In this document: piece after piece, positions 35,778 through 38,363 of the stretch
Numbering within the stretch: the first letter of the stretch is position 1
Layout: every line of letters starts with the position of its first letter
NCBI RefSeq assembly: GCF_988242995.1
Contig: NZ_OZ547043.1
Direction: 5' to 3' (one strand)
Length of the DNA stretch: 64,000 bases
The notes under the pieces: generated by a model
Database searches by the model: none
The model's input: only the letters and a program-made list of their open reading frames with translations
What the model was told of the DNA's origin: nothing
Position numbers and translations under genes: made by a program

Positions 35778-37130
35778 ATGACTAAACACTATGATTACAT
35801 CGCCATCGGCGGCGGCAGCGGCGGTATCGCCTCCATCAACCGCGCGGCTATGTACGGCCAGAAATGCGCGCTGATTGAAGCCAAAGAGCTGGGCGGCACC
35901 TGCGTGAACGTCGGTTGCGTACCGAAGAAAGTGATGTGGCACGCGGCGCAAATCCGTGAAGCGATCCACATGTACGGTCCGGATTATGGTTTCGATACCA
36001 CTATCAATAAATTCAACTGGGAAACGTTGATCGCCAGCCGTACCGCCTATATCGACCGTATTCATACTTCCTATGAAAACGTGCTCGGTAAAAATAACGT
36101 TGATGTAATCAAAGGCTTTGCCCGCTTCGTTGATGCCAAAACGCTGGAGGTAAACGGCGAAACCATCACGGCCGATCATATTCTGATCGCCACCGGCGGT
36201 CGTCCGAGCCACCCGGATATTCCGGGCGTGGAATACGGTATTGATTCTGATGGATTCTTCGCCCTGCCGGCGCTGCCAGAGCGCGTAGCGGTTGTTGGCG
36301 CGGGTTACATCGCCGTTGAACTGGCGGGCGTGATTAACGGCCTCGGCGCGAAAACGCATCTGTTTGTGCGTAAACATGCGCCGCTGCGCAGCTTCGACCC
36401 GATGATCTCTGAAACGCTGGTCGAAGTGATGAACGCCGAAGGCCCGCAGTTGCACACCAACGCCATCCCGAAAGCAGTAGTGAAAAATGCCGATGGCAGC
36501 CTGACGCTGGAGCTGGAAGATGGGCGTAGTGAAACGGTGGATTGCCTGATTTGGGCGATTGGTCGCGAGCCTGCCAATGACAACATCAACCTGGAAGCCG
36601 CTGGCGTTAAAACCAACGAAAAAGGCTATATCGTCGTCGATAAATATCAAAACACCAACGTTGAAGGTATTTACGCGGTGGGCGATAACACGGGTGCAGT
36701 GGAACTGACACCGGTAGCAGTTGCAGCGGGTCGCCGTCTCTCTGAACGCCTGTTTAATAACAAGCCGGATGAGCATCTCGATTACAGCAACATTCCGACC
36801 GTGGTCTTCAGCCATCCGCCGATTGGGACTGTTGGTTTAACGGAACCGCAGGCGCGCGAGCAGTACGGCGACGATCAGGTGAAAGTGTATAAATCCTCTT
36901 TCACCGCGATGTATACCGCCGTCACCACTCACCGCCAGCCGTGCCGCATGAAACTGGTATGCGTTGGACCGGAAGAGAAGATTGTCGGAATTCACGGCAT
37001 TGGTTTTGGTATGGATGAAATGTTGCAGGGCTTCGCGGTGGCGCTGAAGATGGGGGCGACCAAAAAAGACTTCGACAATACCGTCGCCATTCACCCGACG
37101 GCGGCAGAAGAGTTCGTGACCATGCGTTAA
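35778..37130 (+). CDS. gor: glutathione reductase
   Basis: 450 aa; FAD-binding GGGSGG motif and redox-active CVNVGC disulfide motif. Confidence 0.95.
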
Positions 37131-37135
37131 ATGTT

Positions 37136-37168
37136 AAAGGGCAAAGAGTGGTGTGCTCTTTGCCCTTA
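37136..37168. terminator. hairpin between gor and dinQ 3' ends (putative bidirectional terminator)
   Basis: aagggcaaagag...ctctttgccctt; weak U-tract. Confidence 0.4.
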
Positions 37169-37183
37169 GCTACGTTTCCGCTA

Positions 37184-37267
37184 TCAGTTCAGAAGCTGAA
37201 GCAGGAAGCGGATCAGTTCCAGCAGCGCAATTAACGCCCCAAGAACGATGATTGCTTTATCAATCAC
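37184..37267 (-). CDS. dinQ: DinQ toxic inner-membrane peptide (27 aa), type I toxin
   Basis: Reverse-complement reading gives GTG ATT GAT AAA ... AAC TGA = (M)IDKAIIVLGALIALLELIRFLLQLLN, matching remembered DinQ. Confidence 0.8.
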   Translation of the reverse strand: MIDKAIIVLGALIALLELIRFLLQLLN

Positions 37268-37460
37268 CCGTTTTCTCCATGCGATGGAGTGAGAATGCAT
37301 CCGCTTACTCATCCACTGCCTGTCACGGCGCATGCCCCATTGTTAGATGTGGGCATTCTCACTCCGGCCAGAGCATCAGTTAACGGCACCACCCGTACTT
37401 CTGACCAGGACTTTGAAAGCGTTTATGCGCATTACCAGAGTGAAAATGCCTCAGAACTAA

Positions 37461-37476
37461 CTGGATAATCATACAG
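37461..37476 (-). promoter_or_regulatory. LexA box (CTG-N10-CAG) in dinQ promoter
   Basis: ctggataatcatacag read directly; adjacent overlapping CTGTAT repeats. Confidence 0.6.
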
Positions 37477-37540
37477 TACATACAGGTTATAAAACCAGCA
37501 TGTCCTTGCAATAGTTTCAGTATGGTATTAGCATTGATGC

Positions 37541-37623
37541 GTTAGATGATGGCATTCTCACTCCAGCCAGAGCCACCAACTCTGGGCTGCAAAGTAAAAA
37601 ACCGACGCGAAGTCGGTTTTTTT
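37541..37623 (+). ncRNA. agrA: AgrA small RNA (dinQ antisense-repeat sRNA) with intrinsic terminator
   Basis: Repeat gttagatgAtggcattctcactccAgccagagccaccaactc... shared with dinQ 5' region and agrB, ending in aaaaaaccgacgcgaagtcggttttttt; ends approximate. Confidence 0.65.
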
Positions 37624-37775
37624 ACGTCCGGATTCGGACAAGGCCTGGTACGGCAGCGACCCGATGAAAGTATATAAATCCTCTTTCACCAACATGTATA
37701 GCAAACTGTCCCTTCGCCAGCTGAAGAAATCGCTAACGCTTGCAATGTTAGCCACTGGCTAATAGTATTGAACCG

Positions 37776-37858
37776 TTAGATGTGGGCATTCTCACTCCGG
37801 CCAGAGCCACCAACTCAGGGCTGGAAAGTAAAAAACCGACGCAAAGTCGGTTTTTTTA
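37776..37858 (+). ncRNA. agrB: AgrB small RNA (antitoxin sRNA for dinQ) with intrinsic terminator
   Basis: Second copy of the repeat; gttagatgtgggcattctcactccggccagagc is identical to the segment at 37341-37373 in the dinQ leader; ends approximate. Confidence 0.65.
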
Positions 37859-38009
37859 CGTCCTGATTCAGACCTCCTTTCAAATGAATACCCAACTCAA
37901 AATTCACACCTATTACCTTCCTCTGCACTTACACATTCGTTAAACCATATATGTTTTTGACTTATCCGATTCGAAGAGAGACACTACCTGCAACAATCAG
38001 GAGCGCAAT

Positions 38010-38363
38010 ATGTCATTTCTGTTACCCATCCAACTGTTCAAAATTCTTGCCGATGAAACCCGTCTGGGCATCGTTTTACTGCTCAGCAAACTGGGAGAGT
38101 TATGCGTCTGCGATCTCTGCACTGCTCTCGACCAGTCGCAGCCCAAGATCTCCCGCCACCTGGCATTGCTGCGTGAATGCGGGCTATTGCTGGATCGCAA
38201 GCAAGGTAAGTGGGTTCATTACCGCTTATCGCCGCATATTCCAGCATGGGCGGCGAAAATTATTGATGAGGCCTGGCGATGTGAACAGGAAAAGGTTCAG
38301 GCAATTGTCCGCAAACTGGCTCGACAAAATTGTTCCGCAGACAGTAAGAACATTTGCAGTTAA
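38010..38363 (+). CDS. arsR: arsenite-responsive repressor ArsR
   Basis: 117 aa with metalloid-binding ELCVCDLC motif within the HTH region. Confidence 0.93.
   Translation: MSFLLPIQLFKILADETRLGIVLLLSKLGELCVCDLCTALDQSQPKISRHLALLRECGLLLDRKQGKWVHYRLSPHIPAWAAKIIDEAWRCEQEKVQAIVRKLARQNCSADSKNICS

What the first reader, a model, noticed from the sequence alone, without database searches (positions are those of the whole stretch)
37184..37858. dinQ / agrA / agrB type I toxin-antitoxin locus with LexA box and triplicated repeat
Between gor and arsR a 27-codon ORF on the minus strand encodes the DinQ membrane peptide. About 200 nt upstream (in dinQ orientation) is a CTG-N10-CAG LexA box. A roughly 35-nt repeat (gttagatg[t/a][g/t]ggcattctcactcc[g/a]gccagagc) occurs three times: once in the dinQ leader and twice in plus-strand units that end in identical strong intrinsic terminators (agrA, agrB). 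The agrB copy is identical to the leader segment over 33 nt while the agrA copy differs at three positions, consistent with agrB being the functional antisense regulator.
Basis: partly seen in the sequence, partly recalled or inferred. Interest (0 to 1): 0.4.

Follow-up and report, generated by a model that had tools for sequence, protein, structure and literature searches.

The report
Known E. coli dinQ-agrAB toxin-antitoxin locus
This is the well-characterised, SOS-inducible dinQ/agrA/agrB type I toxin-antitoxin locus that lies between gor and arsR in Escherichia coli, so the finding is correct but ordinary; its only unusual feature is a minority allele in which the agrB antisense RNA matches the dinQ leader perfectly.

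Summary
Window 37131-38009 is the E. coli gor-arsR intergenic region: 100% identical to strain NY1601 and 96% to K-12 MG1655, where dinQ, agrA and agrB are annotated.

- The 27-codon minus-strand ORF (37184-37267, GTG start) is DinQ (NCBIfam NF041472, 54 bits).
- Both plus-strand units hit Rfam RF02891 AgrB far above threshold (106 and 98 bits; gathering score 40).
- The 33-nt repeat occurs three times, against 0 expected by chance. agrB is identical to the leader copy and agrA differs at 3 positions.
- The CTG-N10-CAG box (37461-37476) is identical to the published K-12 LexA operator and overlaps dinQ +1.
- One slip: the two terminators have identical stems but differ by one loop base.

The mechanism is published: LexA repression, +44 processing, an RNA switch, and agrB-induced sequestration of the Shine-Dalgarno (SD) sequence plus RNase III cleavage. 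All its sequence elements are conserved here. Verdict: already known, low interest.

Things I noticed beyond the finding:
- Repeat positions 8-16 are a hypervariable specificity segment that changes in concert in the leader and one agr copy.
- The matching copy is agrB here and in K-12, but agrA in the O157, O26 and O104 genomes and several others I sampled.
- About 15% of complete E. coli genomes, including Nissle 1917, have collapsed the locus by recombination between repeats, deleting the dinQ promoter.
- A gor pseudo-fragment lies between agrA and agrB.

The parts
37131..37461 (-). Full-length (+1) dinQ transcript, 331 nt, placed by homology with K-12. mRNA position p corresponds to window coordinate 37462 - p.
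   Evidence: No indels against MG1655 across this stretch. The published lengths are 331 nt (+1) and 288 nt (+44), with the SD at G184-G187 (PMC5066626). The first base is G and position 44 is U, as published.
37137..37167 (.). Terminator hairpin shared by gor and dinQ (SL9 of the dinQ mRNA).
   Evidence: 12-nt perfect inverted repeat (I5). Fold energy is -18.6 kcal/mol, z = -5.9. One stem pair is A:U here and U:A in K-12 (37161/37143), a compensatory change.
37184..37267 (-). dinQ coding sequence: 27-aa single-pass membrane toxin with a GTG start.
   Evidence: NCBIfam NF041472 toxin_DinQ, 54 bits against a cut-off of 30. PGAP annotation in identical DNA. The peptide is identical in 17 of the 18 loci for which it was translated; one has a stop-codon change. 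Experimental basis for the GTG start and toxicity: PMC3567139.
37275..37298 (-). SD GGAG (37275-37278), published element 4 (37275-37280) and element 3, the anti-SD (37284-37295). Also the 13-nt stretch 37286-37298 that is complementary to the leader repeat.
   Evidence: Mapped from PMC5066626. Identical to K-12. Inverted repeat I3 is 13/13 complementary, against 9 bp in K-12. The SD hairpin 173-178:182-187 is predicted in the +1 form.
37342..37374 (-). Leader copy of the repeat, which is the agrB target site in the dinQ 5' UTR (mRNA 88-120). It contains published element 2 (37356-37368).
   Evidence: Mapped to the published antisense region G88-A119. Differs from K-12 at 6 positions (37349, 50, 52, 53, 55, 56), and agrB carries the same 6 changes.
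37418..37418 (-). Position homologous to U44, the 5' end of the translatable +44 dinQ mRNA.
   Evidence: Placed by homology only. Processing was not tested here.
37434..37461 (-). 5' arm of the S1 'double-lock' stem (mRNA 1-28). It includes published element 1 (37434-37446) and is itself an agr-like sequence acting in cis.
   Evidence: Predicted to pair with mRNA 94-120 in both alleles. There are 17 contiguous pairs here against 13 in K-12, with duplex energies of -34.6 and -27.3 kcal/mol.
37461..37476 (.). LexA operator 1 (CTG-N10-CAG). It overlaps dinQ +1 and my inferred -10 hexamer, TATGAT on the minus strand (37468-37473).
   Evidence: Identical to K-12, where the operator has a published heterology index of 4.83 (PMC3567139). 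Conserved in Escherichia species and Citrobacter youngae. The -10 assignment is my inference.
37470..37485 (.). Candidate for the second, weaker LexA operator: CTGTATGTACTGTATG on the minus strand. Uncertain.
   Evidence: The paper reports a second operator (HI 13.82) close to the first, but the figure is not held, so the assignment is my inference. The window has CTGTAT where K-12 has CTGCAT.
37506..37534 (+). Inferred agrA promoter: TTGCAA, 17-nt spacer, TAGCAT.
   Evidence: Read from the sequence. The -10 ends 7 nt before the mapped +1. It scores 8/12, below the scan threshold. The paper reports consensus-like -10/-35 boxes.
37542..37625 (+). agrA small RNA, the paralogue of agrB. Its 5' antisense segment has 3 mismatches to dinQ and it ends in an intrinsic terminator (37596-37622).
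   Evidence: Rfam RF02891, 98.3 bits, E = 1.3e-17. K-12 agrA (b4712) maps to 37542-37623. Fold energy -27.3 kcal/mol, z = -3.3.
37648..37700 (+). 53-nt pseudo-copy of an internal piece of gor (83% identical to 36863-36915), lying between agrA and agrB.
   Evidence: D3. blastn E = 4e-11. Present in all two-agr loci sampled and, in degraded form, in K-12.
37740..37768 (+). Inferred agrB promoter: TTGCAA, 17-nt spacer, TAGTAT.
   Evidence: Read from the sequence. Aligns with the agrA promoter at 72% identity.
37776..37859 (+). agrB antisense RNA, the antitoxin. Its 5' segment (with G37775) is 33/33 complementary to the dinQ leader, followed by a stem-loop and a terminator (37830-37856).
   Evidence: Rfam RF02891, 106.2 bits, E = 2.4e-19, full length. 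K-12 agrB (b4713) maps to 37776-37857. Fold energy -32.5 kcal/mol, z = -4.2. Duplex with the target is -69.9 kcal/mol.

Best explanation
This is the chromosomal dinQ-agrAB type I toxin-antitoxin module of Escherichia coli. The working model is taken from the K-12 experiments and fitted onto this sequence.

1. LexA binds the operator that overlaps the dinQ promoter and +1 (37461-37476), so dinQ is transcribed on the minus strand only during the SOS response.
2. The 331-nt primary transcript cannot be translated. Its first 28 nt pair with nt 94-120 (stem S1). This leaves the anti-SD element 3 free to close a hairpin over the GGAG SD, and it also hides the agrB target.
3. Removal of the first 43 nt gives the +44 mRNA. 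Element 2, inside the leader repeat, now pairs with element 3. That opens the SD, and the 27-aa DinQ peptide is made from the GTG at 37267. DinQ inserts into the inner membrane, depolarises it and lowers ATP.
4. agrB is transcribed constitutively from the plus strand. Its 5' 33 nt pair with the leader repeat of +44 dinQ, which displaces element 3 so that the SD hairpin re-forms. The duplex is then cut by RNase III.
5. agrA is a paralogue with 3 mismatches and is the weaker or non-cognate partner in this strain.

Shown here: the identity and position of every sequence element, the complementarity, the predicted structures and the family membership. Inferred from K-12 by homology: transcription, LexA binding, +44 processing, RNase III cleavage and toxicity.
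For: - Identity of the region: 100% identical to E. coli NY1601, where PGAP calls dinQ, and 96% to MG1655, where dinQ, agrA and agrB are annotated at the homologous positions.
- Toxin family: NCBIfam NF041472 toxin_DinQ, 54 bits.
- Antisense RNA family: Rfam AgrB RF02891, 106 and 98 bits against a gathering score of 40.
- Repeat: three copies against 0 expected by chance.
- Conserved switch elements: LexA operator 1, the SD, elements 3 and 4 and position U44 are base-for-base identical to K-12. Elements 1 and 2 each differ at one end position, and pairing is kept (U28:G94 and U16:A106).
- Folding: the MFE fold of the +1 form reproduces the published S1 stem and SD hairpin. The SD is predicted to be more open in the +44 form.
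- Pairing energies: the agrB-target duplex is -69.9 kcal/mol and the agrA duplex -54.7. The net cofold gains are -44.9 and -28.4.
- Natural co-variation: across at least 6 different alleles of the 9-nt variable segment, in Escherichia, Citrobacter and Serratia, one agr copy carries exactly the same segment as the leader. SL3 pair 110:127 is C:G here and U:A in K-12.
- Mechanism: experimental papers PMC3567139 and PMC5066626.
Against: - Nothing in the sequence contradicts the model.
- No expression data exist for this strain.
- The unconstrained MFE fold of +44 does not pick the published 2:3 stem. With that stem enforced the structure is only 0.6 kcal/mol worse here, and 3.1 kcal/mol worse in K-12.
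- Because the three repeats are direct copies on one strand, identity between the leader and agrB could be kept by gene conversion rather than by selection for pairing. The co-variation is therefore supportive, not proof.
Confidence: 0.95

Rival explanations
1. In this allele both agrA and agrB act as antitoxins. agrA has only 3 mismatches in 33, against 6 of 31 reported for K-12 agrA, so it would not be the degenerate bystander it is in K-12.
For: - The isolated agrA-target duplex is -54.7 kcal/mol with a 14-nt perfect run. That is similar to the best available pair in O26 (-55.0) or O157 (-52.8) and not far from functional K-12 agrB (-59.6).
- In K-12, both sRNAs lowered the full-length dinQ transcript (PMC3567139).
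Against: - When the RNAs' own structures are included, the net gain for agrA is -28.4 kcal/mol. That is the same as non-functional K-12 agrA (-27.7) and 16 kcal/mol worse than agrB.
- It falls in the non-cognate cluster of -21 to -31, against a cognate cluster of -38 to -45, across ten genomes.
- The two adjacent mismatches sit in the variable segment that distinguishes alleles.
Confidence: 0.15
2. The repeats are inert remnants of tandem duplication and recombination in the gor-arsR spacer, and the plus-strand units are not expressed regulators in this strain.
For: - The spacer carries duplication debris: a gor pseudo-fragment at 37648-37700.
- The repeats do recombine. Single-agr loci and fully collapsed loci exist in other E. 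coli.
Against: - Both units keep full-length, high-scoring matches to the AgrB covariance model, TTGCAA-17-TAGNAT promoters and strong terminators.
- agrB is a perfect match to a leader allele that itself differs from K-12 at 6 positions, so the pair has been kept matched.
- The K-12 homologues are experimentally expressed and functional (PMC3567139).
Confidence: 0.03
3. The product is the longer 49-aa ORF (37184-37333) or one of its ATG-initiated forms, not the 27-aa peptide.
For: The ORF is open for 49 codons with three in-frame ATGs. It was the original annotation of dinQ.
Against: - A GGAG SD sits 7 nt upstream of the GTG, and the regulatory hairpin is built around it.
- The NCBIfam model covers only the C-terminal 22 residues.
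Confidence: 0.02

Closest known systems
dinQ-agrA-agrB of E. coli K-12 MG1655 (b4613, b4712, b4713; Weel-Sneve et al. 2013, Kristiansen et al. 2016)
   Same: - Same genomic position (gor-arsR) and the same gene order and strands.
- Identical DinQ peptide, LexA operator 1, SD, elements 3 and 4, and +44 position.
- The same two sRNA units with the same promoter architecture and terminator stems.
- 96% identity overall with no indel in the dinQ transcript.
   Different: - Six substitutions in the 9-nt variable segment of the leader repeat (GTGGGCATT against AAGAACTCT), mirrored exactly in agrB.
- agrB pairing is 33/33 here. In K-12 it has one mismatch over the same 33 nt, and the paper counts 30/31 complementary.
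- agrA has 3 mismatches here against 7 over the same 33 nt in K-12.
- S1 is predicted to have 17 contiguous pairs against 13, and the element 2:3 duplex 13 against 9.
- The gor pseudo-fragment is better preserved here.
- This allele class is in roughly 3% of complete E. coli genomes (164 at 99% identity or more). The K-12 class is in about 28% (1497).
tisB-istR-1 (E. coli SOS-induced type I toxin-antitoxin)
   Same: LexA-repressed toxin mRNA that is inert until about 42-44 nt are removed from the 5' end. The antisense RNA is encoded divergently and non-overlapping, pairs in the 5' UTR far from the SD and triggers RNase III cleavage. The toxin is a small inner-membrane depolarising peptide (PMC5066626).
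   Different: Unrelated sequences: DinQ matches only NF041472. tisB uses a ribosome standby site, whereas dinQ uses a four-element SD hairpin switch. tisB has a single functional antisense RNA, IstR-1.
dql (dinQ-like) genes of Enterobacteriaceae (Kristiansen et al. 2016; DinQ/AgrB family in T1TAdb)
   Same: Same 5' UTR architecture and peptide signature. My cross-species scan recovered leader plus agr pairs in Citrobacter and Serratia with the same repeat organisation.
   Different: Those are paralogous or orthologous loci in other contexts, some without the LexA box. The window's locus is the true dinQ.
hok/sok fold-back inhibition and shoB-ohsC
   Same: The full-length toxin mRNA is locked against both translation and antisense binding by an intramolecular stem, and processing activates it.
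   Different: hok is locked by 5'-3' pairing and activated by 3' trimming. Sok overlaps its target in cis. There is no LexA control.

Membership tests
DinQ/AgrB type I toxin-antitoxin family | Small hydrophobic toxin peptide of the DinQ family | tested here: met
   NCBIfam NF041472 (equivalog) scores 54 bits against a cut-off of 30, E = 1.4e-14. The peptide is identical to K-12 DinQ.
DinQ/AgrB type I toxin-antitoxin family | Located in the gor-arsR intergenic region, transcribed towards gor | tested here: met
   gor is at 35778-37130 (+) and arsR at 38010-38363 (+), with dinQ on the minus strand between them.
DinQ/AgrB type I toxin-antitoxin family | LexA operator overlapping the dinQ promoter | tested here: met
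   37461-37476 is identical to the K-12 operator (published HI 4.83) and overlaps the mapped +1. LexA binding itself was not tested.
DinQ/AgrB type I toxin-antitoxin family | Divergent, non-overlapping antisense sRNA of the AgrB family whose 5' end is complementary to the dinQ 5' UTR over about 31-34 nt | tested here: met
   Rfam RF02891 scores 106.2 bits (agrB) and 98.3 bits (agrA) against a gathering score of 40. Complementarity is 33/33 and 30/33.
DinQ/AgrB type I toxin-antitoxin family | Four 5' UTR elements allowing mutually exclusive 1:2, 2:3 and 3:4 pairings, so that the SD hairpin can switch | tested here: met
   Elements 3 and 4 are identical to K-12. Elements 1 and 2 each carry one end-position change that keeps the pairing. 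S1 and the SD hairpin are predicted in the +1 form, and the SD is more open in +44. The 2:3 structure lies within 0.6 kcal/mol of the MFE.
DinQ/AgrB type I toxin-antitoxin family | Expression of the RNAs, +44 processing, RNase III cleavage of the duplex, and toxicity of the peptide | not testable with these tools
   Known for K-12 only (PMC3567139, PMC5066626).
TisB/IstR-1 family | Toxin homologous to TisB | tested here: not met
   In NCBIfam at E <= 0.01, the only family matched by the peptide is toxin_DinQ. The resemblance to tisB is in mechanism, not in membership.

The most novel reading that the evidence does not exclude
The dinQ-agr module may be a polymorphic lock-and-key system rather than one fixed toxin-antitoxin pair.

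- Variable segment: repeat positions 8-16 exist in at least five alleles in E. coli.
- Cognate copy: in each two-agr genome only one agr copy matches the leader. That copy is agrB in the window and K-12 classes, but agrA in the O157:H7, O26, O104:H4 and several other genomes I sampled. There the 'spare' agrB often carries the allele that matches another lineage's dinQ.
- Collapse of the locus: the same direct repeats mediate deletions. About 8-13% of genomes keep one agr copy. About 15% (807 genomes, including the B2 strains Nissle 1917 and NC101) have fused the leader repeat to an agr repeat. That fusion removes the dinQ promoter, the LexA boxes, mRNA nt 1 to about 95 and the agr promoter, yet the ORF is still annotated as dinQ.

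I found no description of this in the papers held. T1TAdb only notes that either paralogue may be chosen by energy.
Probability: 0.45. Interest if true: 0.4.

Novelty: already known. Interest (0 to 1): 0.12.

Why it matters
As reported, the finding adds nothing new. dinQ, agrA and agrB are annotated genes of E. coli K-12, with an Rfam family, an NCBIfam model and two mechanistic papers.

Its value is as a positive control: a reader with no tools can recognise a type I toxin-antitoxin module, its operator and its antisense repeats from raw sequence.

The by-products could matter modestly.
- The natural allele series (leader and cognate agr changing together, and SL3 and terminator pairs changing in a compensatory way) is independent evidence for the published RNA-pairing model.
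- The apparent agrA/agrB role swap means that K-12-based statements such as 'agrA is non-functional' should not be carried over to other lineages.
- The collapsed locus in about 15% of genomes means that 'dinQ present' calls in toxin-antitoxin surveys and annotations, for example in B2 strains, probably mark a promoterless relic.

Tried and rejected
- **Promoter/terminator scan.** It found none of the three promoters or the agr terminators. The promoters score 8/12, just under threshold. I think the terminator A/T runs are absorbed into the stem. I used folding and homology instead.
- **Bare CTG-N10-CAG as evidence for a LexA box.** Rejected, because it occurs 27 times in the window. Only identity with the K-12 operator carries weight.
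- **Chimeric leader+agrB queries to build a genome-wide 2x2 table of alleles.** Only partly usable. The shared 33-nt repeat lets one site satisfy both halves, giving '81% covered' rows. I therefore relied on 18 fetched loci from a rank-spaced sample of 60. Treating rows with equal bit scores as the same allele is an assumption.
- **Unconstrained MFE of +44 dinQ.** It does not reproduce the published S2 stem in either allele. With the stem enforced the energies are close to the optimum, so I did not treat this as evidence against the model.
- **'agrA may be functional here'.** Suggested by mismatch counts and duplex energy, then downgraded once whole-RNA cofolding placed it with the non-cognate pairs.
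- **A further remnant of the dinQ 3' end after the gor pseudo-fragment (37706-37726).** E = 6.6, not significant. Left as speculation.
- **Heterology index of the operators.** Not computed, because I do not hold the Lewis matrix.
- **Position of the second operator.** My guess only, because the paper's figure is not held.

Full report
**What is there**

Window 37131-38009 is the spacer between gor (35778-37130, +) and arsR (38010-38363, +). It is 100% identical to E. coli strain NY1601 and matches 5422 of 5426 complete E. coli genomes. It is 96% identical to K-12 MG1655, with no indel across the dinQ transcript. In NY1601, PGAP annotates the minus-strand ORF as 'damage-inducible type I toxin DinQ'. 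In MG1655, dinQ (b4613), agrA (b4712) and agrB (b4713) are annotated at the homologous positions, which map to window 37184-37267, 37542-37623 and 37776-37857.

**Checking the observation**

- The ORF 37184-37267 (-) has a GTG start and 27 codons. It encodes VIDKAIIVLGALIALLELIRFLLQLLN, identical to K-12 DinQ, and hits NCBIfam NF041472 at 54 bits against a cut-off of 30.
- The 33-nt repeat GTTAGATGTGGGCATTCTCACTCCGGCCAGAGC lies at 37342, 37541 (3 mismatches) and 37775 (0 mismatches). That is three matches against 0.00 expected by chance.
- The two plus-strand units are full-length matches to Rfam RF02891 AgrB, at 106.2 and 98.3 bits against a gathering score of 40. They fold into a 5' single-stranded antisense arm, a stem-loop and an 11-bp terminator, with z-scores of -4.2 and -3.3.
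- The CTG-N10-CAG box is at 37461-37476. The bare motif occurs 27 times in the window. Its meaning therefore rests on identity with the K-12 operator, which has a published heterology index of 4.83. It also rests on the box overlapping the mapped +1.

**Mapping the published mechanism**

There are no indels, so K-12 mRNA numbering transfers directly: position = 37462 minus the window coordinate.

| Element | mRNA position | Window coordinates |
|---|---|---|
| +1 | G1 | 37461 |
| +44 processing site | U44 | 37418 |
| Element 1 | 16-28 | 37446-37434 |
| agrB target | 88-119 | 37374-37343 |
| Element 2 | 94-106 | 37368-37356 |
| Element 3 | 167-178 | 37295-37284 |
| SD | 184-187 | 37278-37275 |
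| GUG start | 195-197 | 37267 |

 Weel-Sneve et al. 2013 and Kristiansen et al. 2016 showed the following in K-12:
- LexA control of dinQ.
- A translationally inert +1 RNA locked by stem S1 (1-28 paired with 94-120).
- Activation by removal of 43 nt, which lets element 2 pair with element 3 and free the SD.
- Repression by agrB, which binds element 2's region, re-closes the SD hairpin and creates an RNase III substrate.
- No such effect from agrA.

 In the window, the MFE fold of the +1 form reproduces S1 and the SD hairpin. The SD is predicted to be more open in the +44 form. With the published 2:3 stem enforced, the structure is only 0.6 kcal/mol above the optimum. I therefore take the K-12 mechanism to apply here. 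The sequence elements and pairings are shown. Expression, processing, cleavage and toxicity are inferred by homology.

**How this allele differs from K-12**

The differences cluster in the leader repeat. Six substitutions fall at mRNA positions 106, 107, 109, 110, 112 and 113, changing the segment from AAGAACTCT to GTGGGCATT. agrB carries exactly the same six changes.

- Pairing with agrB is perfect over 33 nt here. In K-12 the same 33 nt have one mismatch, and the paper counts 30/31 complementary.
- The changes are also accommodated inside the mRNA.
  - SL3 pair 110:127 goes from U:A to C:G.
  - S1 becomes 17 contiguous pairs (-34.6 against -27.3 kcal/mol).
  - The 2:3 duplex can reach 13 bp, against 9 in K-12.
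- agrA has 3 mismatches here, against 7 over the same 33 nt in K-12. Even so, whole-RNA cofolding gives a net -28.4 kcal/mol for agrA and -44.9 for agrB, the same gap as in K-12 (-27.7 and -43.4).

**Beyond the finding**

I fetched 18 loci from a rank-spaced sample of the E. coli genomes and 12 loci from a species-level scan.

- Repeat positions 8-16 are hypervariable, while DinQ, the SD region and the rest of the repeat are nearly invariant.
  - Leader alleles seen in E. coli are GTGGGCATT, AAGAACTCT, AATGGCATT, AATGGTATT, GACGACTAT and GTGGGCTAT.
  - Serratia oryzae has GTGGACTGC, Citrobacter youngae GATAACTAT and C. amalonaticus GTTGAGAGT.
  - In each of these three species, as in the window, K-12 and O26 classes of E. 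coli, one agr copy carries the identical segment. In the other E. coli alleles the best agr copy differs by 1-2 bases in the segment.
- Net interaction energies fall into two clusters, cognate (-38 to -45 kcal/mol) and non-cognate (-21 to -31). E. whittamii is the exception among the ten genomes, with both copies at about -43 to -45.
  - The cognate copy is agrB in the window, 181.1, K-12 and elppa9 types.
  - It is agrA in O157:H7, O26, MS6198, FDAARGOS_1291 and E69. O104:H4 has the same alleles as O26.
- The direct repeats also recombine.
  - Some genomes keep a single agr copy, with a spacer 234 nt shorter.
  - 807 genomes match, at 99% identity or more, a junction in which the leader repeat is fused to an agr repeat. 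They include Nissle 1917 and NC101.
  - That fusion deletes the dinQ promoter, the LexA boxes, the first 95 nt or so of the mRNA and the agr promoter.
- The K-12 class (leader plus agrB) is in 1497 genomes. The window's class is in roughly 164.
- Because the copies are direct repeats, gene conversion can explain the concerted changes without invoking selection, so this is supportive evidence, not proof.
- In the papers held I found no description of the role swap or of the collapsed locus.

**History of the locus**

A 53-nt pseudo-copy of an internal gor segment lies between agrA and agrB (37648-37700, 83% identical to 36863-36915, E = 4e-11). It is present in all two-agr loci sampled. This suggests that the second agr unit arose by a duplication that included part of gor. 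The 2013 paper had proposed tandem duplication of the sRNAs.

**Verdict**

The locus is already known and annotated, so interest is low. The allele series, the agrA/agrB role swap and the repeat-mediated collapse are the only points that might merit a short follow-up.

Noticed in passing
window 37648-37700 (compare 36863-36915): A 53-nt pseudo-copy of an internal piece of gor (83% identical, E = 4e-11) lies between agrA and agrB. It reads in frame as KVYKSSFT, as in Gor. It is present in all two-agr loci sampled and degraded in K-12. This suggests the agrB unit arose by a duplication that included part of gor.
   Followed up: partly
window 37349-37356 and 37782-37789; loci L002, L015-L032: Repeat positions 8-16 are a hypervariable segment with at least six alleles in E. 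coli. Relative to K-12, the leader and agrB of the window carry the same six substitutions. In the O157:H7, O26, O104:H4, MS6198, FDAARGOS_1291 and E69 genomes the well-matched copy is agrA and agrB is mismatched, the reverse of K-12 and of this window.
   Followed up: yes
L023 and L024 (positions about 360-400); junction query L023:300-470: In 807 complete E. coli genomes, including Nissle 1917 and NC101, the leader repeat is fused directly to an agr repeat. This deletes the dinQ promoter, the LexA boxes, the 5' 95 nt or so of the mRNA and the agr promoter. PGAP still annotates dinQ there. arsR and arsB are also missing, so arsC is adjacent.
   Followed up: partly
L019 (Ecol_AZ155), L020, L021, L022: Loci with a single agr copy, with a spacer 234 nt shorter. 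This is consistent with recombination between the agrA and agrB units. They make up about 8-13% of the rank-spaced sample.
   Followed up: partly
window 37143/37161 and 37335/37352: Compensatory changes relative to K-12. The terminator stem pair is A:U here and U:A in K-12. SL3 pair 110:127 of the dinQ leader is C:G here and U:A in K-12.
   Followed up: partly
window 37289-37468 (+): A 59-codon plus-strand ORF opposite the dinQ 5' UTR. The homologous ORF is annotated as 'hypothetical protein' in some RefSeq genomes (L022, L026, L029, L031) but not in others with the same DNA organisation. It is probably a spurious call.
   Followed up: no
L004 (Serratia oryzae), L006 and L011 (Citrobacter), L009 (C. 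amalonaticus): dinQ-like loci in other genera with the same organisation of leader repeat plus agr. C. youngae keeps a LexA box (CTGGATAAGTATACAG). Serratia and C. amalonaticus have none at that place. C. amalonaticus has two leaders and two agr units within 1 kb.
   Followed up: partly
L014 (Escherichia sp. MOD1-EC7003), L007 ('Lachnospiraceae' MAG), L005: L014 has the SD/anti-SD motif but no recognisable repeat within 10 mismatches. L007 is an E. coli-type dinQ contig binned into a Lachnospiraceae MAG, which is probably contamination.
   Followed up: no
L028 (E. coli GN03551): The dinQ stop codon is changed, giving a 28-aa DinQ with an extra C-terminal W. This is the only peptide variant in the sample.
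   Followed up: no
window 37482: In the candidate second LexA operator the window reads CTGTAT (minus strand) where K-12 reads CTGCAT, which is closer to the LexA half-site consensus. The operator assignment itself is uncertain.
   Followed up: no
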